Part shown: positions 10,345 through 49,795 of the stretch, piece by piece | Position numbering within the stretch: position 1 is the first letter of the stretch | How the letters are laid out: each line of letters starts with the position of its first letter | Assembly: GCA_951406725.2 (NCBI GenBank) | Contig: CATOCA020000001.1 | Coordinates: 3,100,001 to 3,164,000, forward strand | Origin: Octopus vulgaris | Lineage: Eukaryota | Reading direction: 5' to 3' | Length of the DNA: 64,000 bases | Notes under the pieces: model-generated | Seen by the model: only the letters and a program-made list of their open reading frames with translations | The model's database searches: none | What the model was told of the DNA's origin: nothing | Position numbers and translations under genes: made by a program

Positions 10345-11775
10345 CCTGACTGCGTCCTTGCCCACCTAGTGACTTCCCTCCCCTCTCACATCCATGACAC
10401 CAACCATGCACTTCATTTGTTCAACTCTTTCTCCTTCCCTCCTGGCCCCTCAAAATTTCTCTTCACTCTCGACATCCAGAATCTTTACACGGTAATCCTT
10501 CAACTCGAGGGGCTGCGGGCACTTCAACATTTCATTGACCTTCGACCTAACCCCCAACCCAACACTTCCACACCCATTCGTCTGGCCGAAATTGTTCTTT
10601 CACTCTGATTTTCGTTCGCTGGTGCATTTTACCAGTAGTTTTCGGGAGTGGCCATGGGAACGAGAATGGGTCCCAACGATGCGAACCTGTTCGTTGGCTA
10701 CGTTGAGTCCCAAATATTCTCCGGTTTCACTGGTCCCACTCCCGAACTATACGGTCGTTATATTGACGACTGTATTCGTGCGACCTCACTCTCCGGCGAA
10801 CATCTAGATTCCTTCCTCTCTTTTGTCAAATCTTTCCATCCAGTCCTCCACTTCGCCTGCACTATCTCAGACACCTCTGTCACCTTTCTTGACGTTTCGG
10901 TCAGCATCCATCACTCCACTCTCACCACCTCCATCCACTACAAACACACAGACTCACACTCATACCTCAAATTCACCTCCTCCCACCCTAAACACATTAA
11001 TCTTGCCATCCCCTATTCTCAATTCCTCCGTCTACGCAGGTTCTGTAGTGACGACCTTGACTTTGAGACTCAGTCTCAACTCATGGCTCGCCAGTTCATC
11101 CTACGTGCATATCGCCTCACCACTATCCACACCACCCTTGCCACTGCCCGTTCGATGGATCGTGCATCTGTTCTCTACCCCGCACCAGCGCCGCCGTCCG
11201 CCGTCTCCCATTTCCCATCACCGACCCACCACCACCCCATCTCTCCAACACAACATTCTCGGAGACTTCCAGCGATTCCAGTTCGACCCCTCCACTTCGC
11301 ACATCTTCCATAACCGACCCCTCCCCTTCTTCAAAAGAGCCCACAGCCTACAAGACCACTTGGTATACAGCTTCTTCGCGAACCCAACCTCCCAACATGG
11401 CTCGTTCCCTTGCTCCCGCCCACGCTGCCGCACTTGCCCTGACCTCCCCAACATCAGCCTCCTCCCCGCCACATCGACCCTATCGCATCACCGACTCCTT
11501 CACCTGCACCTCTACCAATGTCATCTACTGCATCTCCTACTCTCTCTGCCCTTCTCTATACATCGGGCAAACGGGACGCCGCTTGGCCGACCGTTTCGCG
11601 GAACACCTCCGAGACATTCGACTCGGCAATGACACACCGGTCTCTCGCCATTTCCGCTCTACCGGTCACTCTTTGCAACACATGTCTGTGCTTGGATTGT
11701 CCTTGCACAGGGGCCATCCGGACTCCCGTTTGCGCCGTGAACAGGGATTAATCTTCTCTCTTCACTCCCTGGTCT
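10345..11775 (+). mobile_element. Penelope-like element remnant (RT + GIY-YIG endonuclease)
   Basis: AMGTRMGP, RYIDD, FLDV, YKHTDSHSYL..SSHP, IPYSQFLRLRR; then NVIYCI..YIGQTGRRL..RF.EH (GIY-YIG); several stops and frameshifts. Confidence 0.9.
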
Positions 11776-12179
11776 CCCCTCCCCTCTCTCCCCCCTCACA
11801 AATACTTCCCATCCACCTGATCTTTCTTGCTCCGACTTCTACTTCTTCTCTTCACTCCTTCTCTCCCTTCTTCTCTTCACTCCTACCCACCTTCTCCCTA
11901 CCCCTTCATCGTCACCCGTCCCTCGTGACCCCACCGCACCCCTGCACAATCCCACCCCACCTTCCCAATCCATCCCACACCATCTCTCACACCCACTTCC
12001 ACATACCGCACCTCTACCGCCACCATCAGCCTAAACCACACCCCACCCTAGCTTTCCCCGCCTCTCCCACCTCCCAACACCATCACACCACACCACATAC
12101 CACTGCACTATACACCACCATACCACACGACACTACACCGCATCGCATCACACCACCACGCACACTACAGCACTGACCA

Positions 12180-15122: not shown

Positions 15123-16235
15123 GACCAAATAAGCCACTGACATTCAAACAACTTTGCACACCACTTCAAATGTTGAATTATCTTATCTTCTTTCTACTAA
15201 CATTATTTACATAATGACTTCTGTTAGGAGCGGCAATGGCCTTCCCCGCTGGTATATACCATGGCAGCCATGCAACACAAGAGGAATGTCATAAACACTC
15301 GACCTAATTTCCAGATAAAATACTTCGTCGCTTTTGCGAGATTAAATTTACAACGCTGACAAAAGGCTTTACTTACAAGCAGAACAGGACACACACACGG
15401 AACACACACACACATACACACACACACACAAACACACACACACATACATGGGCATACATGCACACACACAAACATACACAGAAGCATGTAACGATTGGAT
15501 TTGTGGGGTTCATTTGATCTACAAGAAATAGCAGCCAAAGTTTAGCCCAAATCTCACCTTAGTCATATATCGTATGACAGATTACATAGTGTAATTCTAA
15601 ATGCATGTAAATCATCAAGATGGTCGTGGATGGAATGCTTGTGATCATGTCTGCTCGATCAACGATTATGTGCTTCCAAATGTGTCGGTGTGGTAAGAAG
15701 TTTGTTTCACAACCAAATGATTCCTGGTTCAACCCCACATTTGGCAATTCTCTTCCATTATAGTTGTGGCCAACTACAGCCGTCTGTGCCGATTGGTAGA
15801 TAGAAACTGAATGAAACCCTTTGTGTGGAGCATATATATATATATATGTATTCACATGAATTTATTTATGTATCTACCTTCCGACATCTATCTATCTATC
15901 TACCTATGTGTGTGTGTATGTAAATATGTATATATGTATATACACTCAAATACCATATAAATTTATATACATACATAGACATGTATAGGTATGTATATAT
16001 ATATATGTATATAAAGAAAGGCACACATGCACATATATAAACACACTACCAACATCGGTATACACGGTCTATAACCGAGTTTACAAAGGAAGTTCTAGAA
16101 AAAATAAACAATAGTTCTGAATTACTGAGAAGACAGAATTCCTTGTCTTTATCAAAAGGGATCGAAATTGAGAGAATCAACCAATCTAAATTAAATTGTA
16201 TATTGTGGTCGACTTACATGCATACATAGATACAA

Positions 16236-18627: not shown

Positions 18628-18934
18628 TACTAACAATATAGGATGGAGTCCCTTTCTCTACAGAAAAAGAATCCATCAGAAAGCGTGGCAGTATATTAAA
18701 AAAACCGTTACGGTTGAAGTATAAACATCATATAATTAAGGGCTAAATAAGATTATTCTAAAGCCAATACACTGATTTATCCACTTATAATCCACTTGTT
18801 ACAGAAAAATTGAAACTGAAAACGGGCAAGTAACCTTTAGAAAATTTTAATTTCGTTATCTCTATATTGAATCAATTTCGGAATATAAGTGGATAAATCA
18901 GTGTATTGGCTTTAGAATAATCTTCTTTAGCCCT

Positions 18935-19015
<81 letters not shown>

Positions 19016-19153
19016 TAAGAGAGTGGTCACTATATGGCTCACTCTAGCACCAGTTAATTCAAAAGGTTTCAACCACGAAAATACATGTTTCCCATGAAAG
19101 TCAGTACGATTGTTAGCTCACACGGACAGGGCAAATAAAAAATAACAAAAATA

Positions 19154-19250
19154 CAGATTATTTTGGGACAATTGTTTCGCTATTAATGAATTAAATGTAA
19201 TTTTACTTACAAAAAAAATCCATTTGTAGCTCGTCAGCCAAAACTATCTG
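19154..19250 (-). ncRNA. Type I hammerhead ribozyme, copy 1
   Basis: Minus strand reads CAGAUAGUUUUGG-CUGACGA-GCUA...UAGC-GAA-AC-AAUU-GU-C-CCAAAAUAAUCUG. Intact core, stem I 12/13 paired, GUC cleavage triplet at 19169-19167. Confidence 0.88.
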
Positions 19251-19689
19251 GATGAAATCCACTCAATCACACGCCAGATTTTACCATAACGATAAATACG
19301 CGTGTGGTTCAATTGATTACATCCGACGTTATAATTCAAATGCCCCAACTAACAGCGCGCCAAACTTTCACGGAAAACAAATACAGCATTTAGAAATAAA
19401 TGCAGCATAATTATAATTAATTAATAAGGGTGAGAGAATTAGATACTAATTTAATAGTATATCTATTCAACACCAAGTGGCCTAGTGCTACGAGAAACCT
19501 GGATTATTATAATATTTTATAACATATTATAATATTTTTACAAAATAAATATAAGAGAGTGGTCACTATATGGCTCACTCTAGCACCAGTTAATCCAAAA
19601 GGTTTCAACCACGAAAATACATGTTTCCCATGAAAGTCAGTACGATTGTTAGCTCACACGGACAGGGCAAATAAAAAATAACAAAAATA

Positions 19690-19786
19690 CAGATTATTTT
19701 GGGACAATTGTTTCGCTATTAATGAATTAAATGTAATTTTACTTACAAAAAAAATCCATTTGTAGCTCGTCAGCCAAAACTATCTG
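19690..19786 (-). ncRNA. Type I hammerhead ribozyme, copy 2
   Basis: Same sequence as copy 1, offset +536. Confidence 0.88.
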
Positions 19787-20225
19787 GATGAAATCCACTC
19801 AATCACACGCCAGATTTTACCATAACGATAAATACGCGTGTGGTTCAATTGATTACATCCGACGTTATAATTCAAATGCCCCAACTAACAGCGCGCCAAA
19901 CTTTCACGGAAAACAAATACAGCATTTAGAAATAAATGCAGCATAATTATAATTAATTAATAAGGGTGAGAGAATTAGATACTAATTTAATAGTATATCT
20001 ATTCAACACCAAGTGGCCTAGTGCTACGAGAAACCTGGATTATTATAATATTTTATAACATATTATAATATTTTTACAAAATAAATATAAGAGAGTGGAC
20101 ACTATATGGCTCACTCTAGCACCAGTTAATCCAAAAGGTTTCAACCACGAAAATACATGTTTCCCATGAAAGTCAGTACGATTGTTAGCTCACACGGACA
20201 GGGCAAATAAAAAATAACAAAAATA

Positions 20226-20322
20226 CAGATTATTTTGGGACAATTGTTTCGCTATTAATGAATTAAATGTAATTTTACTTACAAAAAAAATCCATTTGTA
20301 GCTCGTCAGCCAAAACTATCTG
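20226..20322 (-). ncRNA. Type I hammerhead ribozyme, copy 3
   Basis: Same sequence as copy 1, offset +1072. Confidence 0.88.
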
Positions 20323-20861
20323 GATGAAATCCACTCAATCACACGCCAGATTTTACCATAACGATAAATACGCGTGTGGTTCAATTGATTACATCCGACG
20401 TTATAATTCAAATGCCCCAACTAACAGCGCGCCAAACTTTCACGGAAAACAAATACAGCATTTAGAAATAAATGCAGCATAATTATAATTAATTAATAAG
20501 GGTGAGAGAATTAGATACTAATTTAATAGTATATCTATTCAACACCAAGTGGCCTAGTGCTACGAGAAACCTGGATTATTATAATATTTTATAACATATT
20601 ATAATATTTTTACAAAATAAATATAAGAGAGTGGTCACTATATGGCTCACTCTAGCACCAGTTAATCCCGTGGTTGAAACCTTTTGGATTAACTGGTGCT
20701 AGAGTGAGCCATATAGTGACCACTCTCTTATATTTATTTTGTAAAAATATTATAATATGTTATAAAATATTATAATAATCCAGGTTTCTCGTAGCACTAG
20801 GCCACTTGGTGTTGAATAGATATACTATTAAATTAGTATCTAATTCTCTCACCCTTATTAA

Positions 20862-20908
<47 letters not shown>

Positions 20909-21441
20909 TTAAGGGACATTAGTCATTTCTACCAAAACTTTTACTAATCCTACCCAATGCAATTTATCTCTAATTTAATATATATATATATATATATATA
21001 TATTAAATTAGAGATAAAACCACTATTAGGCAAATCAAACAATGAAAACCATAAGCCAATACATAAAATTAATTAATTTATATTATTTTTAAAATATATC
21101 AAAAGTATTCAAAGTTTAATAAAATATAACGAGGCCAGTCGGGGTGGCGCTGGCAACGGCCACATTCGGATGATACTCTTACGTGCCACCGGCACTGGTA
21201 TCTCAGCTGCAATTTCCATTGATCAATTCTGATTCTCACTATCTTTTAATACTTTTGATATATTTTTATTATAATATAAATTAATTAATTTTATGTATTG
21301 GCTTATGTTTTTCATTGTTTGATTTGCCTAATAGTGGTTTTATCTCTAATTTAATATAATATAATATATTTATACTATAAAATTGGGTTTAATCCTAAAT
21401 CTGATTTTTCCCTGTAAGTTTGGATTTATTCCCTAATACTT

Positions 21442-22377: not shown

Positions 22378-23417
22378 ATGGAAAGATACTTGAAATCTGA
22401 CAGACTGAATACAAACTGAAATTCTATAAATGCTGATAAAGTTTTTAATCACTGGTTTAGAACTTTCACCAACTTTATAGACTCACTACCAGGGCAGGAA
22501 GGTAGGGTTATCGATAAAGGCAATCTTTTGATTAATTATGTGGAACCGAACGTATACGAATTCATCAGAGAAACTAAGAACTACGAAGAAGCTGTGAATA
22601 CACTAAAGATTGTGTACATTAAACCAAAGAACATCGTAATGGCACGCCATCTTTTAGCCACAAGGAAACAGAAACTAGGGGAATCTCTAGACCAGTTCTT
22701 AAATGAACTCAAAATATTAGCGAAAGTCTGTGACTTTGTTGCAGTGAGTGCTGAGCAGTACCGGTCTGAAATGATTCGAGATGCATTTATAAATGGTCTC
22801 ACTTCGAATCAAATACGACAAAGACTATTAGAAAACAAAAGTGCCGACCTCAGTACAGCTTATGATCAAGCACGTTCCCTAGATGTGGCGCAACATAGTT
22901 CCTGTGTATTTGTAAACGCTGAGGGTGCCAAATTCAGTCCAACTGCATCCATTGTAGCTAAGCCAATAGATTCCCCAAAGCAGGGAGGAGACCCCTGTCA
23001 ATGTTGGCTTTGTGGCTATTCCAGACATCCGCGGACTCACTGCTCTGCGTGGAAAGCAGTCTGTCACAAATGCCCAAAATAGGGCATTTTGGAAAACTAT
23101 GTAGGAGCACCGCAGCAACTGTAACACAGGATGATGGTGAAAATTATTTGCGATTGGCAGTATCAGCATCAGCAGGTTCACACTTCCGAGTAACCTCCAA
23201 GGTTATACTGAACAATAGCTATAAAGCCGAAGCATTAATTGATGGCGGTAGCACTGACAAGAGCTTCATTAGTGAGAAGCTAGAGAACACACTCGACATT
23301 ATCACGGTCAAATTGAAGAGCGTCATTGGTATGGCTTCTGCATCACTTTCTGCGGAATCCAAGGGATACTGCACGGTTTCACTAACCCACAATAATCAGA
23401 AATACTACCATGACTAG
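22378..23417 (+). mobile_element. Ty3/Gypsy LTR retrotransposon gag-protease remnant
   Basis: Gag (ARHLLATRKQ..ESLDQF, IRDAFINGL..IRQRLLE), tandem Zn knuckles CWLCGYSRHPRTHC and CHKCPK*GHFGKLC, aspartic protease ALIDGGS; internal stops. Confidence 0.85.
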
Positions 23418-23439
23418 TATTCCTCCTCCTGCAGTCTCT

Positions 23440-32024: not shown

Positions 32025-35000
32025 CAGAAAAAAGCCTGAGAGCGAGAAAGGAAGGAGAGAGAGAGAATGAAACGAGAGGAAGAAAGTGAGAAATGAAAGA
32101 GTGATAGAAAGGAATGAGAGAGAGAAAAAGAAATGAGAGGCAGAAGGAGAGAAATGAAAGAGTGAGAGAGAGAAAGAAGGATAAAAAGAAGGGAGAGAGA
32201 AGGAGAAAAAAGCTTTGAGCGCAAGAAAGGAAAGAGAGAGAGAAAAGGGAATGAGAGGAAGAAAGTGAGAAATGAAAGAGTGAGAGAGAGGAAGAATGAT
32301 AAAAAGTAAACGAGAGGGAGACAGAAGGAGAAAAAAGCCTGAGAATGAGAAAGGAAAGAGAGAGAGAAAGAAACGAGAGAAAAAAGAGAGAAATGAAAGA
32401 GTGAGAGAGAGGAAGAATGATAAAAGGAAAACGAGAGGGAGAAAGAAGGAGAAAAAAGCCTGAGAGCGAGAAAGGAAGGAGAGAGAGAAAGAAACGAGTG
32501 AAAAAAGAGAGAAATGAAAGAGTGAGAGAGAGGAAGAATGATAAAAGGAAAACGAGAGGGAGAAAGAAGGAGAAAAAAGCCTGAGAGCGAGAAAGGAAGG
32601 AGAGAGAGAAAGAAACGAGTGAAAAAAGAGAGAAATCAAAGAGTGAGAAAGAGGAGGAATGATAAAAGGAAAACGAGACGGAGAAAGAAGGAGAAAAAGG
32701 CCTGAGAGCGATAAAGGAAAGAGAGAGAGAAAGAAACCAGTGAAAAGAGAGAGAAATGAAAGACTGAGAGAGAGGAAGAATGATAAAAGGAAAACGGGAG
32801 GGAGAAAGAAGGAGAAAAAACACGAGAGCGAGAAAGGGAAGAGAGAGAAAAAGAAACGAGAGGAAGAAAGAGAGAAATGAAAGAGTGAGAGAGAGGAAGA
32901 ATGATAAAAAGAAAACGAGAGGGAGAAAGAAGGAGAAAAAGCGAGAGAGCAAGAAAGGAAAGAGAGAGATAAAAAGGAATGAGAGGAAGAAAGAGAGAAA
33001 TGAAAGAGTGAGAGAGAGGAAGAATGATAAAAGGAAAACGAGAGGGAGAAAGAAGGAGAAAAAAGCGAGAGAGCGACAAAAGAAGGTGAGAGAGAAAAAG
33101 AAATTAGAGGAAGAAAGAGAGGAATGAAAGAGTGAGAGAGAGGAAGAAGGATAAAAGGAAAACGAGAGGGAGAAAGAAGGAGAAAAAAGCGAGAGTGCGA
33201 GAAAGGAAGGAGAGAAAAGTGAGGGCGCGAGTAAAGAAAGAGAGAGAAAGAGAAACAAGAGAAAGAAAGAGAGAAATGAAAGAGTGAAAGAGGGGAAGAA
33301 TGATAAAAAGAAAACGAGAGGGAGTAAGAAGGAGAAAAAAGCCTGAGAGCGAGAAAGGAAGAAGAGAGAGAATGAAACGAGAGGAAGAAAGTTAGAAATG
33401 AAAGAGTGAAAGAGAGGAATTAGGATAAAAAGAAAACGAGAGGGAGAAAGAAGGAGAAAAAAGCGAGAGAGCAAGAAAGGAATGTGAGAGAGAAAAACAA
33501 ATGAGAGGAAGAAGGAAAGAAATGGAAGAGTGAGAGAGAGAAAGAAGGATAAAAAGAAAACGAGAGTGAGAAAGAAGGAGAAAAAAGCTAGAGAGCAATA
33601 AAGGAAAGAGTGAGAGAAAAGGGAATGAGAGGAAGAAAGAGAGAAATGAAAGTGTGAGAGAGAGGAAGAATGATAAAAGGAAAACGAGAGGGAGAAAGAA
33701 AGAGAAAAATGCGAGAGAGCGAAAAAAGAAGGAGAGAGAGAAAAAGAAATAAGTGGAAGAAAGAGAGGAATGAAAGAGTGAGAGAGAGGAAGAAGGATAA
33801 AAAGAAAACGAGAGGGTGAAAGAAGGAGAGAAAAATGAGAGACTGAGAAAAGTAAGAGAGAGAAAAAGAAACGAGGGAAAGAAAGAGAGAAATGAAAGTG
33901 TGATAGAGAGGAAGAAGGATAAAAAGAAAACGAGAGGGAGAAAGAAAGAGAAAAAAGCGAGAGAGCGAGAAAAGAAAGAGAGAGAAAAAGAAACAAGAGA
34001 AAGAAAGAGAGAAATGAAAGACTGAGAGAGAGGAAGAAGGATAAATGAAAACGCGAGTGAGAAAGAAGGATAAAAAACCCTGAGAGAGAGAAAGGGAAGA
34101 GAGAGAGAATGAAACGAGTGAAAAAAGAGAGAAATCAAAGAGTGAAAGAGAGGAAGAATGATAAAAAGAAAACGAGAGGGAGTAAGAAGGAGAAAAAAGC
34201 CTGAGAGCGAGAAAGGAAAGAGAGAGATAATGAAACGAGAGGAAGAAAGTGAGAAATGAAAGAGTGAAAGAGAGGAATAAGGATAAAAAGGAAACGAGAG
34301 GGAGAAAGAAGGGGAAAAAAGCGAGAGAGCAAGAAAGGAATGAGAGAGAGAAAAAGAAATGAGAGGAAGAAGGAGAGAAATGAAAGAGTGAGAGAGAGGA
34401 AGAATGATAAAAAGAAAACGAGTGGGAGAAAGAAGGAGAAAAAGCGAGAAATTGAGAAAAGAAGGAGAGAGAGAGAAAGAAACGAGAGAAAAAAAGAGAG
34501 AAATGAAAGATTGAGAGAGAGGAAGATTGATAAAATGAATACGAGAGGGAGAAATGAGAAAAAAGCGGGAGAGCGAAAAAAGAAGGAGAGAGAGAAAAAG
34601 AAATAAGAGGAAGAAAGAGAGAAATGAAAGGGTGAGAGTGAGGAAGAAGGATCAAAAGAAAACGAGAGGGAGAAAAAAGGAGAAAAAAGTGAGAGGGCGA
34701 GAAACGAAAGAGAGAGAGAAAAAATGAGAGGAAGAAAGAGAAGATAAAAAAGATTGAGTAAGAGAAAAAGACAATGAGGAAATGAGAGAGAAAGAGAGAA
34801 CAGAGAGCGAAAGAGAGGAAAGGAACAGATAGAGAGAGAGAGAGGAAAAGGAAATAGAGAGAGAAAGAGAGAAAAGGAAAAGATAAAGAGAGATAGGGAG
34901 AAGGAAAGCCAGAAAATAAAAAGAGAGAGAGATGAAGCAGAGTGGGAGAGAACGAGAATAGAAAAAGAGAAAGAAGGAGAGGAAGAGAGGAAGATGGAAG

Positions 35001-36516
35001 ATAAGAGAAGAAAAAGGTACTGAGAGAAATAAAGAGAGAAAATGGGAGAGAGAGAGAGAGAGAGGAAGAAAGATGAAAAACAAACACTGAAAGAGAGAGA
35101 AATGAGAAAGAGAGGGTTAAAAGAGACGTAAAAGGAATAAAGAGAATGAGAGAAAAGAAAGTGAGAAGGCAAGAGAGGAGAAAAAAGAAAAAAGTAAGTC
35201 CCTTAAAGGGAGAAAAGGAAAAGGGGGAAAGAAGAGAAAAAGGAAATGACAAAGAGACAGAAAGAAAGAGAGGGATAGGGAGGAAGAGAGAAAAGGAAAG
35301 TGGGAGAGCGAGAGAAAGAGAGAAGAGAAAAATTAGCAGAGAAAGGAGATAACAGAGAGAAAGAGGAAGAGAGGAAAGAAAGAGAGTGATAGAACGAAAG
35401 AGAAAAACGGAAGCAAGTAAGGGAGGGAGAAAGAAGAGAGAATAGAAAAAGAGAGAAAAGTAAAGCAGGAGAGAAAGGTAAAAGAGCGGGGTAAAAGGAG
35501 AGAAGCGAAAAAGAGAGGGGGAGAAAGAAGGAAGGAAAGGGGGGAAAAGAAAGTGAGAGATAAGAATAGGAGAGGAAGAGGAAGAAAAAAGAGACAGAGA
35601 GGGAAAGAGGGGAATATACGAAAGAAAAGAGAGTGGGAAATAGAGAGAGAGGTTAAAAGATAGAAAAGAGAGACAGACAGGGAAAGAGGGGAATATAGGA
35701 AAGAAATGAGAGTGGGAAATAGAGAGGGAGGAAGAAAGATAGAAGAGAGAGAGAGAGAGAGGAAGGAAAGGGAGAGAAAGAGAGAGCAAAAAGTAAGAGA
35801 CATGGAGAGAGAAAGATAGAAAATAAAATGTGAGAGAGTGAAAGAAGAAGAAAGGGAGAGGAAAGGGAGAGAGTGAGCAAAGGAAAAGAGAAAGGGCGTC
35901 AAAGAAAGAGACACAAGCAAAAGAGAAAAGGCAAAGAGAAGCAGAGAGAGAAAGAGAGAGATAGAGATAAAAGTAAAAGAGAAAGAGAGACGAAAATGAA
36001 AATGATTGGGTGAAAGAGAGAAAAGGAAAAGTGAAGGGGACAGAGAGAGAAAGAAAGAGAGAAAAGTAATAGAGAGAGAGATAAAGAAAGAGGAAGAAAA
36101 CGAGAGAAATAGAGAAAAGTGAAATAGAAAAAGAGAGAAAAGAATGGGGGAGAGAGAAATAGAGGGAAATGAGAGAGGGAGCAAGAAAGAGAGGGAAAAG
36201 AGAAAGAGAAAGAAAGTAAGAATAGAAAGAGAGAGAGAGAGGCGGAGAGAAAATGAGAGAAATTGAAAATAGAGATGAAGAAAGATAAGAGATAAAAGAA
36301 AAAGAGAAAGAGGAAGGAAATGAGAGAGAGAAAGAGAGGAACGGAAAAAGGGAAAAGAGAGAGAGAGTAAAAGAGACACGGAGAGAGAAAGAGAAAGAAA
36401 GATAGAAGAGAAAGGGGGAAAGAGAGAGAAAGTGAGAAAAGAAATAGAAGGAAAGAAATGAAAGAGGGAGATAGAGAAAGAAGGAGATAAAGAGGAAAGA
36501 AAACGAGAAAGAGAGT

Positions 36517-36547
<31 letters not shown>

Positions 36548-36552
36548 AGAGA
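32025..36552. repeat. 4.5-kb polypurine (GA-rich) tract; first ~2.7 kb is a ~121-bp minisatellite
   Basis: aaaaaagcctgagagcgagaaagg..aaatgaaagagtgagagagaggaagaatgataaaa recurs about every 121 bp (32335, 32456, 32577, 32697...). Confidence 0.95.
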
Positions 36553-46780: not shown

Positions 46781-47954
46781 ATATACACTGCTCTACATCT
46801 TAGAGTGTGCTTCTTCTCCGGATTTATCTTTTCTACAATCAAAACATATATATACATAGATATGTCATTATTCAGTTTATTTGAAGGTATATTATTTTTC
46901 ACTTTATATCAACATCCGCTGGACAGCTAATTTCCACAACTGTGCACAGTTTCTCTATGTATGTATGTATGTATGTATGTATGCATGCATGCATGCATGT
47001 ATGTCCGCACACACACACATACACACACACGTGATATAATTGTCACTTAGTCTACCTCAGGAATTTCACGGTTTTTTGAGTTTAATTACAAATGAGGGAT
47101 TGGGAAATGGAGTATTGACCCATTTTGCATCGGACCCTTGTGGGTTGGATACTGTACAATTGGATGTGTTGCATCATCCGGTGCAGATGCATCTCATCTG
47201 GTGTCTTGTTTTACAGAAGAAACCTCACTAAATATTCTCGGTTTCGCTTGGCATGTTGTTGCCAGGAGGTTGATGGCTATAATGCTATAATCCAAGAACC
47301 TACTGACAACAACAACATACCAAGCGACACTGAGAACTCTCCCACCCGCAAGGAATCGATGCAAGAGGGGTCAAACCAGTTGTTGTGATGAATAAAGTTT
47401 CTCGTGAACTTCATTTTACATATTCCTCATTCAACATATATATTTTTACATCCAACAGTAATGTATATAAATCTCTCTCTCTTTCTCCCTATATATGTAT
47501 ATATATATATATATATATATTTGAGTGTGTATCTGTGTATGTGTGTGTGCACGCGCATTAATTTCATGGTGGTGGACACTAACCACCTCAACAGTTTTAT
47601 GAACCTCTTATTAATTATAGCAACATCAAAAGTATACTTTAGAAATTTCAATTCTTCTTTACTAGTCTTGATCTGTTAATCATGTGTTCACTCGTGTTCA
47701 GCTCCCCTAAAACTTACTATAGTTAGGAAGAAAGGTAGATTAAGCTGAAACAATCTATTTAAGACATCTTTATCCTGTCTAGAACACATTCTCATAGCAA
47801 CATCTAGAGGATCTTACGAAGGTTGATTTTACGGACAAACATCAAATGTACATGATCAGTTTGATCAAGTATACAGTAGAAGACAATAATGACACATTGA
47901 TATCCATCCTGATTTTCATGTAAATTTTCATTTTCTATTTTTACTTCCACAAAG

Positions 47955-48164
47955 GGTTCACTTCAGTTGGACATTAAGAACAAAATGGAAAGGACACCAT
48001 TGCTTGAAGCCGTTTCCCAGGGTCACCTCGGAATGACACACCTGTTAATAGCCCTGGGTGCAAATGTAAATGCTGTTGATGGTGAAGGTAACAGCTGTTT
48101 GCACCTAGCCATGGCAACAGAAAAGTTTAATTCCGAGGGTGCACCCTTGGATTTACTAAACGAA
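47955..48164 (+). CDS. ANK-RING gene exon 6
   Basis: ccacaaag acceptor (an in-frame alternative cttcag starts the exon at 47967); GSLQLDIKNKMERTPLLEAVSQGHLGMTHLLIALGANVNAVDGEGNSCLHLAMATEKFNSEGAPLDLLNE; GTAAGT donor, phase 0. Confidence 0.9.
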
Positions 48165-49795
48165 GTAAGTTTTAAAATTGTTTGTGTATATACATGCGTG
48201 TGTGTCTGTGTGTGTGTGTCTGTGTGTGTCTGTGTGTGTGAGTGTGTGTGTGTCTGTGTGATTTTGTATATTTGGGAGTCTTTGTGGGAGTGTGAGAGAG
48301 AGAGACAGGCAGACAGACAAACTTTGCTTGTCATGTATCAATTCTCCCCTATCAACCCCATCCTCCATTACCATTCCGTGATCCAGTCTCCCCTTGTGAC
48401 CCGAGTGATATTATGTAACAAACAATATTCCATCTCCTTTCACTCTCAAAGATGTCGTCTCACCACGGTCGAGAGGTGACCCATCTCGGTTGTTAGCCAT
48501 ATAAACACAGCCATCACAATGTGACGGAGAAGTGGCCTATTTAATAGAGGAGATATTATTCTCAATTAACAATGATGCAGGATAGAAGAGATGTCTGAGC
48601 TTTATAGTGCTGGTGCCATGGTAAATACATCCAGTCCATTCTATGAAGAATTCTGAGTGAAACTGCTCTCTATCCTACTTCTTGTACACGACATGAATCC
48701 ACTGACTTCTTGTGGACATGTCATAACAATGCTCAATGTTAAGACACTAGAGAATGAATACAATAAATCATGGTCCTCAGTGAGTTTTCCTGTATTTAAG
48801 TTCTGTACTTAGGCACACACACACTCATGCACACATACATACACACCCACACACACACAATCACACAGATAAACACACACAAGTAATGATTTTGAGTTTG
48901 AGTATATATCTTGTAAAATGCTGTTTTAAGCCCGTTTACTGTATTCGGCTATCTGATGTCATCAACAGTATGGACTTCAATACTACTGGACTTTTTGCTG
49001 TCATCTCATAAATGAAGCAGTTTTTTATAATTCTTATATTTTTTCAAAATTAAGATAAACAAAGTACTTTTTTCTGTTGATCTAAAACATATTCTCCTTC
49101 ATTTTCCATCTATCTGGTAGACTTGCAAGTCACCTCTTCCAAAATTCACTTGTCCGTGATTAAAAATACTCCTGTATTACTCTTCTGACTTGACACTAAT
49201 TCTTGCTTCCTTTACTTTACCGTCATCATTCAAAGATGCTTCTTGCTTAATTATGGAAACATTATTGATATGTTTGGTTATGTCTGTGTGGTATTGACTT
49301 TGTTATGTTATAGGTGTTTTTGTTTCTGATATAACTTATGTTCTTTCTTCTCATGTTGTGTTATATTTATATATACAATACTCTTTCTTATGGCCACATG
49401 ATCACCTTTATCAAACCAATTATATAGGTAGGTTCTTGTTGGTTTGTTCTTCCTATATTTGACTTTTCTATTGAATATATTGTGATATTTGTGATTGACA
49501 AGTAAACATTAACTCATTAATTAACAATAAGCTTGATGTTAATCAATACGGTTTGTCCTGCTCAATGTAATGACAATATATTTAAAGTGTGTCTCAGTGT
49601 TGAAAATAAAGTAAAAACATGAAAATGGGAAATGGATTCATTTAAAGATTATGTAGGAACTCAATATTTTGTAATTGCTTTAATTAGTGGATAAACAACC
49701 TATGAGTAAATTTAGATTAACTTTTGTGTAATTAGGGGCATTTGTTTTGAATATTTGTGTAATATTGTCATCATTTTATATTTCATCATTTGTAG

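What the first reader, a model, noticed from the sequence alone, without database searches (positions are those of the whole stretch)
19154..19250. Unusual hammerhead geometry: minimal palindromic stem III with a very long stem II
Seen: stem III is only AC-AAUU-GU (palindrome ACAAUUGU). Stem II is ~52 nt: GCUA/UAGC, AAUGGAUU/AAUUCAUU, a U-rich internal loop, then UGUAA/UUACA with a GUAAAA loop. Known: palindromic minimal stem III motifs of PLE hammerheads fold poorly as monomers and cleave as dimers. Inference: the tandem arrangement is functionally required, so adjacent units pair through the palindrome and only multimeric transcripts are processed.
Basis: partly seen in the sequence, partly recalled or inferred. 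Interest (0 to 1): 0.7.

Follow-up and report, generated by a model that had tools for sequence, protein, structure and literature searches.

The report
Long-armed hammerhead in Penelope-type retrozyme
This is a hammerhead (predicted self-cutting RNA) motif with one unusually long side arm, repeated in a 536-base protein-free element that has about 2,200 motif copies in this animal genome; it likely cuts best when two copies pair and is likely spread by Penelope-type retrotransposon enzymes, so it is a structural variant of a known kind of element.

Summary
On the minus strand, 19154-19250 is a type I hammerhead with an intact core, a 52-nt helix II and helix III AC-AAUU-GU. It recurs in three 536-bp units of a two-armed insertion in (TA)n. 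The family has 2182 motif copies. The same design occurs 8004 times (control 9) across many families, including coding Hydra-clade Penelope-like elements with helix II up to 85 nt. The helix III loop takes ten different palindromes; only 89 of 8004 have a centre that cannot self-pair. That supports pairing between two ribozymes. Three corrections: (1) this helix III is the canonical metazoan type, not the minimal PLE type, and published invertebrate examples cut as monomers; (2) the long arm is conserved as a fold, not in sequence or length; (3) 'tandem required' is unproven, since 0 of 24 older sister loci hold a same-strand pair and a published PLE hammerhead is protein-assisted and dispensable in vitro. 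No autonomous partner with shared sequence was found; cleavage and circular RNA were not testable. This scan noted such elements before, in this genome and in others. Verdict: new variant of a known kind (non-LTR retrozyme).

The parts
19154..19250 (-). Type I hammerhead motif, copy nearest the 3' end of the sense strand
19238..19250 (-). Helix I, 5' strand (6 bp + G-U, A/A mismatch, 5 bp)
   Evidence: 6 of 7 inner pairs change on both sides among 22 relatives
19231..19237 (-). Core CUGANGA (N7 = C here; A, G, U in relatives)
19179..19230 (-). Helix II, 52 nt: canonical 4-bp base, 2x2 internal loop, extended hairpin
19168..19175 (-). Helix III palindrome ACAAUUGU (2 bp + 4-nt loop as monomer; predicted 8-bp duplex as dimer)
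   Evidence: loop covariation
19166..19167 (-). Predicted cleavage site, after C17 of GUC (unit position 380/381)
   Evidence: hammerhead consensus; not tested
19154..19166 (-). Helix I, 3' strand, with U1.7 at 19160
   Evidence: invariant alignment column in 22 of 22 rows (shifted by one base in 2 of them)
19690..19786 (-). Second identical hammerhead copy
20226..20322 (-). Third identical hammerhead copy
19011..20666 (-). Long arm of the insertion: three 536-bp units plus 48 bp, 32% GC, no ORF; 3' end at unit position about 540 against (TA)n
20669..20870 (+). Inverted short arm (unit 470-536 then 1-135); 3' end at position 135 against (TA)n, i.e. the arm with the roughly 130-nt tail
18935..19017 (.). 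Left (TA)n target
20867..20905 (.). Right (TA)n target

Best explanation
The motif is a type I hammerhead with an intact core, a 52-nt helix II and a 2-bp palindromic helix III, carried by a 536-bp non-coding element that is likely a non-autonomous passenger (non-LTR retrozyme) of Hydra-clade Penelope-like retrotransposons and likely cleaves mainly as a double hammerhead. Shown: sequence, copy number, conserved fold, conserved palindromy, (TA)n targeting, two-armed insertions with two fixed 3' ends, and the same ribozyme design and end pattern in coding Hydra-type elements. Inferred: read-through RNA of two or more units folds each unit into a rod that brings neighbouring palindromes together into an 8-bp helix III; cleavage after GUC releases 536-nt monomers; a ligated monomer has only the weak 2-bp helix III, so it resists re-cutting and serves as template; Hydra RT-endonuclease nicks (TA)n and starts reverse transcription at two internal sites (unit 135 and about 540), running round the template to give uniform arrays and inverted arms. 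The long arm is most likely a tolerated, stably folded extension of loop 2 that leaves a 2x2 internal loop at the canonical 4-bp distance, where the usual loop 1-loop 2 contact could still form.
For: Core and helices: helix I 95.5% of cells paired, 6 of 7 pairs change on both sides; whole structure covariation 0.401 vs 0.169 shuffled and <=0.128 slid (22 related rows, so not independent events). Palindrome: AATT, ATAT, ACGT, CTAG, CATG, GTAC, GGCC, TCGA, GCGC, AGCT; 81 of the first 100 listed are strict palindromes, 15 G-U compatible, 4 broken (counted by eye); purine-purine or pyrimidine-pyrimidine centres 37+52 = 89 of 8004; wobble-compatible ATGT 1194 vs its strand-mirror ACAT 41 (in-register duplex -6.0 vs -3.4 kcal/mol). 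The inner pair of a tetraloop cannot form within one hairpin, so its conservation points to pairing between two copies. Folding model: double -182.7 vs two singles -174.0 kcal/mol; circular monomer z -7.9 against 40 shuffles. Ends: 54 of 56 arms in 35 insertions end at 132-140 or 534-536; 20 of 21 two-armed insertions have one arm of each kind; none ends at the cleavage site, matching the two internal RT start sites shown for an anole PLE (PMC11167929). Arrays: mean 0.85 differences within vs 10.1 between 26 arrays; 200 shared, 38 private, 2 mosaic substitutions; 10 variants shared by all units of one insertion and seen in no other sampled insertion. Hydra link: a long-helix-II motif lies 271-486 nt behind the endonuclease stop in 22 of 30 loci; an intact 955-aa ORF with RWR, DKT, CxCX5C, CxxC and CxH motifs (definition in PMC8557442 section 11) carries an 85-nt helix II motif with an AGCU loop in 9 of 12 loci scanned; both Hydra families show two 3' ends about 155-175 nt apart.
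Against: No cleavage or circular RNA data. Invertebrate type I hammerheads with a 2-bp helix III and tetraloop are reported to cut well as monomers (PMC7229834; PMC7761336 passage). 0 of 24 older sister loci contain a same-strand pair. The anole PLE hammerhead needs protein and is dispensable for insertion in vitro; uncut RNA was the main substrate. Eight of nine Xenopus dimer retrozymes showed no cleavage in vitro (Li et al.). No 5' end lies within 5 nt of the cut site (0 of 56 arms; nearest 374 and 394). No coding element sharing sequence with the 536-bp unit was found among the loci fetched. Two small groups break the palindrome (CGCC/CGTC in L112, L118; ACCT in 5 of 52 rows). Two arrays carry mosaic variants (L089 4 of 12 units, L047 2 of 4), so some array growth is not from a single template. 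The unconstrained fold of the dimer (-186.5) is not the active one. ViennaRNA does not model tertiary contacts.
Confidence: 0.6

Rival explanations
1. The ribozyme cuts as a monomer: tertiary contacts between the helix I and helix II internal loops (and stacking on a very stable helix II) hold the 2-bp helix III, as in coral and schistosome type I hammerheads; the palindrome only adds an optional dimer route.
For: Geometry is canonical (6-bp helix I, 4-bp helix II, internal loops at both), U1.7 column invariant in 22 rows without being searched for; published 2-bp + tetraloop invertebrate motifs cut as monomers; older sisters are single per arm.
Against: Near-strict palindromy across ten loop sequences and the 1194:41 asymmetry imply selection on two-copy pairing; monomer helix III probability 0.000 in the model. 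The conserved UAAUA on the 3' side of the internal loop was partly fixed by my search pattern, though three subfamilies found without that constraint also have it.
Confidence: 0.2
2. Cleavage is protein-assisted and incidental to copying: uncut read-through RNA is the template, two RNAs are paired through the palindrome in trans (or by the RT dimer), and arrays arise from multimer RNA, template re-use or later unequal crossing-over. Tandem DNA is then a product, not a requirement.
For: PMC11167929: hammerhead active only with protein, mutants insert normally, no reads end at the cut site. Insertion ends ignore the cut site. Coding Hydra copies and older sisters mostly carry one motif per arm. 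Mosaic variants in 2 arrays.
Against: Core, helices and palindrome are conserved over many diverged families, which needs selection on the fold; variants private to one insertion fill all its units, as expected from a one-unit template.
Confidence: 0.17
3. An ordinary satellite or DNA-level palindromic repeat with a chance hammerhead-like word.
For: A+T-rich, repetitive context; Rfam gives no hit.
Against: 8004 vs 9 matches; compensatory changes; G-U asymmetry favouring the sense strand (-11.8 vs -7.7 kcal/mol); PLE-type ends; position behind PLE ORFs.
Confidence: 0.02

Closest known systems
Metazoan non-LTR retrozymes (Cervera and de la Pena 2020, PMC7229834; Li, Clavereau and Pollet 2026, bioRxiv 10.64898/2026.07.22.740005)
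   Same: Non-coding tandem units, low GC, one type I hammerhead per unit, highly self-paired predicted monomer, proposed PLE dependence.
   Different: Unit 536 bp (above the 150-450 bp of the 2020 paper, inside the 51-972 bp of the 2026 preprint); helix II 52 nt instead of 4 bp plus a short loop; two-armed (TA)n insertions with two fixed ends; expression and circles not shown here.
Canonical metazoan type I hammerhead (newt satellite 2, axolotl HHR_Amex2, schistosome Sm-alpha; description in PMC4209133 and PMC7229834)
   Same: Helix I 6 bp, helix II base 4 bp, helix III 2 bp with palindromic tetraloop, intact core.
   Different: Loop 2 is opened into a 2x2 internal loop closed by a 40-nt hairpin.
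Hydra-clade Penelope-like elements (Craig et al. 2021, PMC8557442)
   Same: (TA)n targeting, inverted 5'-truncated arm, tail on one end, 3' hammerhead; coding members in this genome share the ribozyme design.
   Different: No ORF; tail about 130 nt vs 30-40 nt; the 26 Hydra-clade rows of File S2 have helix II of 3-7 bp with 3-10 nt loops and a 3-4 bp helix III around 1-3 nt, not an even palindrome; long loop 2 inserts are listed only for two spike-moss PLE-X motifs marked as deviating.
Minimal PLE hammerheads (Cervera and de la Pena 2014, PMC4209133; Lunse et al. 2017, not held)
   Same: PLE association, palindromic helix III region, proposed dimer cleavage.
   Different: Those lack helix III or have a tiny insert, have a 4-5 bp helix I, 6-8 bp helix II and an extra base before 10.1; this motif has none of these.
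Poseidon PLE of the anole (Frangieh et al. 2024, PMC11167929)
   Same: Two internal RT start sites explain a tail; AT-rich targets; both strands extended.
   Different: Different clade; its sites are about 30-40 nt apart and inside the ORF.

Membership tests
Type I hammerhead ribozyme | Core CUGANGA / GAAA / UH with G10.1-C11.1 and A15.1-U16.1 | tested here: met
Type I hammerhead ribozyme | Three helices, helix I open, supported by compensatory change | tested here: met
   helix I 6 of 7 pairs change on both sides; basal helix II pairs invariant or nearly so
Type I hammerhead ribozyme | Loop 1-loop 2 tertiary contact | tested here: inconclusive
   internal loops at canonical distances and invariant U1.7 column; the role of U1.7 is recalled, and PMC6155905 passages mention only a conserved reverse Hoogsteen pair
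Type I hammerhead ribozyme | Self-cleavage | not testable with these tools
   needs in vitro transcription
Minimal PLE hammerhead (min-HHR) | Helix III absent or reduced, short helix I, extra base between A9 and 10.1 | tested here: not met
   2 bp + 4-nt loop, helix I 7+5 bp, no extra base (vs PMC4209133)
Metazoan non-LTR retrozyme | Tandem units each with a type I hammerhead | tested here: met
   3 of 3 units in the window; arrays up to 13 same-strand motifs
Metazoan non-LTR retrozyme | No ORF, GC below 50% | tested here: met
   32% GC; longest ATG ORF 19 aa sense, 52 aa antisense
Metazoan non-LTR retrozyme | Unit length of a few hundred bases | tested here: met
   536 bp: above 150-450 (PMC7229834), within 51-972 (Li et al.)
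Metazoan non-LTR retrozyme | Expressed as linear and circular monomer RNA | not testable with these tools
   only assembled contigs of runs not on record as RNA were available
Metazoan non-LTR retrozyme | Target site duplication | tested here: inconclusive
   hidden by (TA)n flanks
Hydra-clade PLE, non-autonomous passenger | Insertion into (TA)n | tested here: met
   27 of 35 insertions on both sides, 34 of 35 on at least one side by a crude 20-nt test
Hydra-clade PLE, non-autonomous passenger | Tandem/inverted structure with a tail on one end | tested here: met
   20 of 21 two-armed insertions have one arm of each end type
Hydra-clade PLE, non-autonomous passenger | Sequence shared with the pLTR of a coding element | tested here: not met
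   no match beyond A+T-rich 20-30 nt words in the Hydra loci fetched; the search was limited to those loci, so the partner is unidentified
Hydra-clade PLE (autonomous) | RT plus C-terminal GIY-YIG ORF | tested here: not met
   no ORF in the unit; met by a different family, P0001 in L171

The most novel reading that the evidence does not exclude
The long helix II is a selected module of a whole lineage of Hydra-type PLEs and their passengers: a folded handle that the RT-endonuclease binds to pick its RNA and to bring two ribozymes together, so that protein binding gates double-hammerhead cleavage. The 536-nt unit plus the intact 955-aa ORF would then be a minimal, ready system to settle what PLE hammerheads are for.
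Probability: 0.15. Interest if true: 0.65.

Novelty: new variant of a known kind. Interest (0 to 1): 0.36.

Why it matters
The role of hammerheads in Penelope-like elements is an open question (stated in PMC8557442 and PMC7761336 passages). This genome offers unusually strong comparative evidence that two-copy pairing through helix III is selected (ten palindromes, 1% unpairable centres, a 29-fold wobble asymmetry), a very young 536-bp passenger with fixed paired ends, and an intact Hydra-clade enzyme to test it with. It also shows that Rfam models and descriptors with short helix II miss thousands of such motifs. The dimer idea, retrozymes and their PLE link are already published, so the gain is a variant and a test system, not a new class.

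Tried and rejected
Rfam at E<=1 (window) and E<=10 (local): no hammerhead family. Sequencing runs: no RNA holder listed; 19 of 23 rows hold the unit, all as assembled contigs, kind guessed or unknown; 4 of them laid cover the unit and show a 536 go-back joint, which tandem DNA and a circle would both give, so nothing is concluded. Search for an autonomous partner: unit vs fetched Hydra and sister loci found only chance A+T words; the Hydra RT beside L001/L121 is an old, broken element into whose TA tract a copy inserted, not its source. 5' ends at the cut site, a lead from earlier finding e1-8664355: 0 of 56 arms within 5 nt (five starts scored as '1' are artefacts of dropping pieces under 40 nt). 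Pfam gave nothing for the Hydra endonuclease piece and only a sub-threshold GIY-YIG hit for a window ORF. The in-register duplex energies failed and were redone. One insertion (L006-L008, five units) was left out of the 35 because no single locus held it whole; duplicate loci of the same insertion were dropped; 12 arrays (L089-L100) and L047, L048 were picked on purpose, so the share of tandem insertions (29 of 35) is inflated; among the 18 plus the window it is 14 of 18, itself size-biased. Lunse et al. 2017 (PMC5785218) is not held. Literature searches: 'hammerhead ribozyme' + 'long stem II' 0 papers; with 'extended helix II' no listed paper held the phrase (20 of 67 listed); taxon-word searches listed nothing on this motif. 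Subscription papers and bioRxiv supplements were not searchable and may describe it.

Full report
Observation. On the minus strand, window 19250-19154 reads as a type I hammerhead: helix I (7 bp including one G-U, an A/A mismatch, 5 bp), core CUGACGA, a 52-nt helix II, GAA, AC-AAUU-GU and C17 at 19167. The region folds with z -3.37, 0 of 200 shuffles as good. Rfam reports no hammerhead here.

The element. The motif lies in each of three 536-bp units (19011-20618, 99.6-100% alike), followed by 48 bp of a fourth and an inverted 202-bp arm (20669-20870); the whole sits between (TA)n tracts. The unit is 32% GC with no ORF over 52 aa. The genome (G000, 2.8 Gb) gave 40 scored matches, all 100% identical over 181 bp, from 1326 candidates, and 2182 family motifs against 0 controls. 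In 35 insertions with 56 arms, 27 arms end at unit 132-140 and 27 at 534-536 (about 540 with the next few bases), 2 elsewhere; 20 of 21 two-armed insertions have one arm of each kind; no arm ends at the predicted cut (380) and no 5' start lies within 5 nt of it. This is the tandem/inverted structure with a one-sided tail described for PLEs (PMC8557442 passages) and explained in vitro by two internal reverse-transcription start sites (PMC11167929). Units within an array differ by 0.85 substitutions on average and between arrays by 10.1; 200 substitutions are shared by all units of an array, 38 are private, 2 mosaic, and 10 fill one insertion and no other sampled (26 arrays, 98 units). That fits repeated copying of a one-unit template but does not exclude uniform multimer RNA or later homogenisation.

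The long helix II is a lineage trait. A generic pattern with a 42-64 nt helix II region and AC-NNNN-GUC has 8004 matches against 9 controls, in many unrelated families. Lengths seen run from 37 nt to 85 nt. One abundant version lies 271-486 nt behind the stop of a GIY-YIG-type endonuclease in 22 of 30 loci. Another, with an 85-nt helix II and AGCU loop, lies about 2 kb behind an intact 955-aa ORF. That protein has the RWK-like, DKT, CxCX5C, CxxC and CxH features that define the Hydra clade (PMC8557442 section 11), and its RT motifs resemble the Hydra proteins of File S4 by eye. Both coding families insert in (TA)n with two alternative 3' ends. The published Hydra hammerheads have short helices II (File S2). 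No coding element sharing sequence with the 536-bp unit was found in the loci fetched, so the Hydra dependence is inferred from target, end pattern and ribozyme design.

Covariation. Among 22 hand-picked relatives (alignment A1), helix I is 95.5% paired with 6 of 7 pairs changed on both sides; the whole structure scores 0.401 against 0.169 for shuffles and at most 0.128 for slid partners (related rows, so not a probability). Helix II is weaker in a column test (74% paired in the basal and middle part, 2 of 10 pairs changed on both sides; one such pair in the 11 closest relatives) because its distal part changes length and sequence; each version still folds (z -2 to -5 in 13 of the 14 motifs of this superfamily, the exception being a damaged copy at -1.0; several other families score weaker, down to about 0). 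So the arm is conserved as a fold, not as a sequence. The first 4 bp are followed by a 2x2 internal loop, and U1.7 is an invariant column that was not searched for. From recall, U1.7 pairs with a loop 2 adenine in canonical hammerheads; this would let the usual contact survive the extension. That step is inferred.

Is it a dimer? For: ten different palindromic loops, including AATT and TCGA in the same GCUA/UAAUAGC frame; 89 of 8004 with a centre that cannot self-pair, nearly all single-base variants of palindromic families; ATGT, which keeps an 8-bp duplex through two G-U pairs, 1194 times against 41 for its mirror ACAT, although a few founder events could drive that ratio. The inner two bases of a tetraloop cannot pair within one hairpin. 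In the folding model the monomer helix III has probability 0.000, and the double-hammerhead fold of two units is 8.7 kcal/mol better than two single folds, because each unit forms a rod (circular monomer z -7.9) that joins neighbouring helix I strands. Against obligatory tandem cleavage: this helix III is the canonical metazoan form (PMC4209133); a 2-bp stem with a tetraloop is called similar to invertebrate motifs, which cut as monomers at 0.8 and 0.1 per min in coral and mussel, while the axolotl 2-bp version reached 22% in an hour as monomer and more as dimer (PMC7229834); 0 of 24 loci of sister subfamilies (70-80% identical, same AAUU loop) hold two same-strand motifs, which may reflect array collapse, rare master loci or pairing in trans; the anole PLE motif needs protein and is dispensable for insertion in vitro; two small groups lack the palindrome. 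The palindromic helix III of repeat hammerheads and the dimer reading are already in print (PMC3088659 Figure S8 legend; PMC6765202 passage).

Mechanism, with odds. Hammerhead-bearing non-autonomous PLE passenger: about 0.9. Selection for two-copy pairing of helix III: about 0.8. The full path (double-hammerhead cut, monomer circle, Hydra copying from two internal sites): 0.6. Monomer cleavage sufficient: 0.2. Protein-assisted and incidental cleavage: 0.17.

What was read. PMC4209133 parts 1-2 of 4; PMC7229834 passages and sections 13-14; bioRxiv 10.64898/2026.07.22.740005 parts 1-3 of 5 (supplements not seen); PMC8557442 passages, section 11, part 2 of 59 of the supplement (Files S1, S2) and passages of File S4; PMC11167929 parts 1-2 of 4; passages only of PMC6155905, PMC6765202, PMC7761336, PMC3088659; nothing of Lunse et al. 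2017 (not held). Searches for a description of long helix II motifs found none, within the limits of the library.

Earlier notes of this scan describe the same kind of element in this genome and in others; my reading was recorded before seeing them and they are not independent evidence.

Noticed in passing
L171:1914-4781 (+), hammerhead at L171:6813; also L172-L175, L178, L180, L187, L188: Young Hydra-clade PLE family with an intact 955-aa ORF (P0001), a 3' region of about 2 kb before an 85-nt helix II hammerhead (loop AGCU), a 5.57-kb tandem in L175 and two-armed insertions; a candidate source of enzyme.
   Followed up: partly
L051-L086: Second, very abundant Hydra-type family (16739 first-look candidates) with a 53-nt helix II hammerhead and 3' ends about 50 and 210 nt after the cut site.
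   Followed up: partly
window 18737-18936 and 20983-21374: Two further inverted-arm, TA-flanked elements directly beside the insertion (57-nt and 132-nt arms); the second has many relatives in fetched loci. No intact hammerhead core seen in them.
   Followed up: partly
window 10639-12173 (+): Broken Penelope-like element of another clade: RT piece and GIY-YIG piece in different frames (Pfam GIY-YIG E 0.017, below cut-off).
   Followed up: partly
window 16052-16210 (-): Fragment of a Hydra-type endonuclease (54% over 54 aa).
   Followed up: partly
L112, L118; five rows: Small hammerhead groups whose helix III loop is not palindromic (CGCC, CGTC; ACCT): natural controls for the dimer test.
   Followed up: no
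L105-L110: Related family with the same helix II base but a 37-43 nt arm and TCGA loop; one same-strand pair 485 bp apart in L105.
   Followed up: partly
window 22420-23420 (+): Broken gag-like and protease-like reading frames of a probable LTR retrotransposon (motifs seen in translation; label from recall).
   Followed up: no
window 32038-36552: Long GA-rich region with a 121-124 bp tandem unit.
   Followed up: no
window 47913-48170 (+); 41488, 10075, 4186 (-); 13570 (+): An ankyrin-repeat-like exon, three mariner-like transposase pieces and a LINE RT piece (translations; labels from recall).
   Followed up: no
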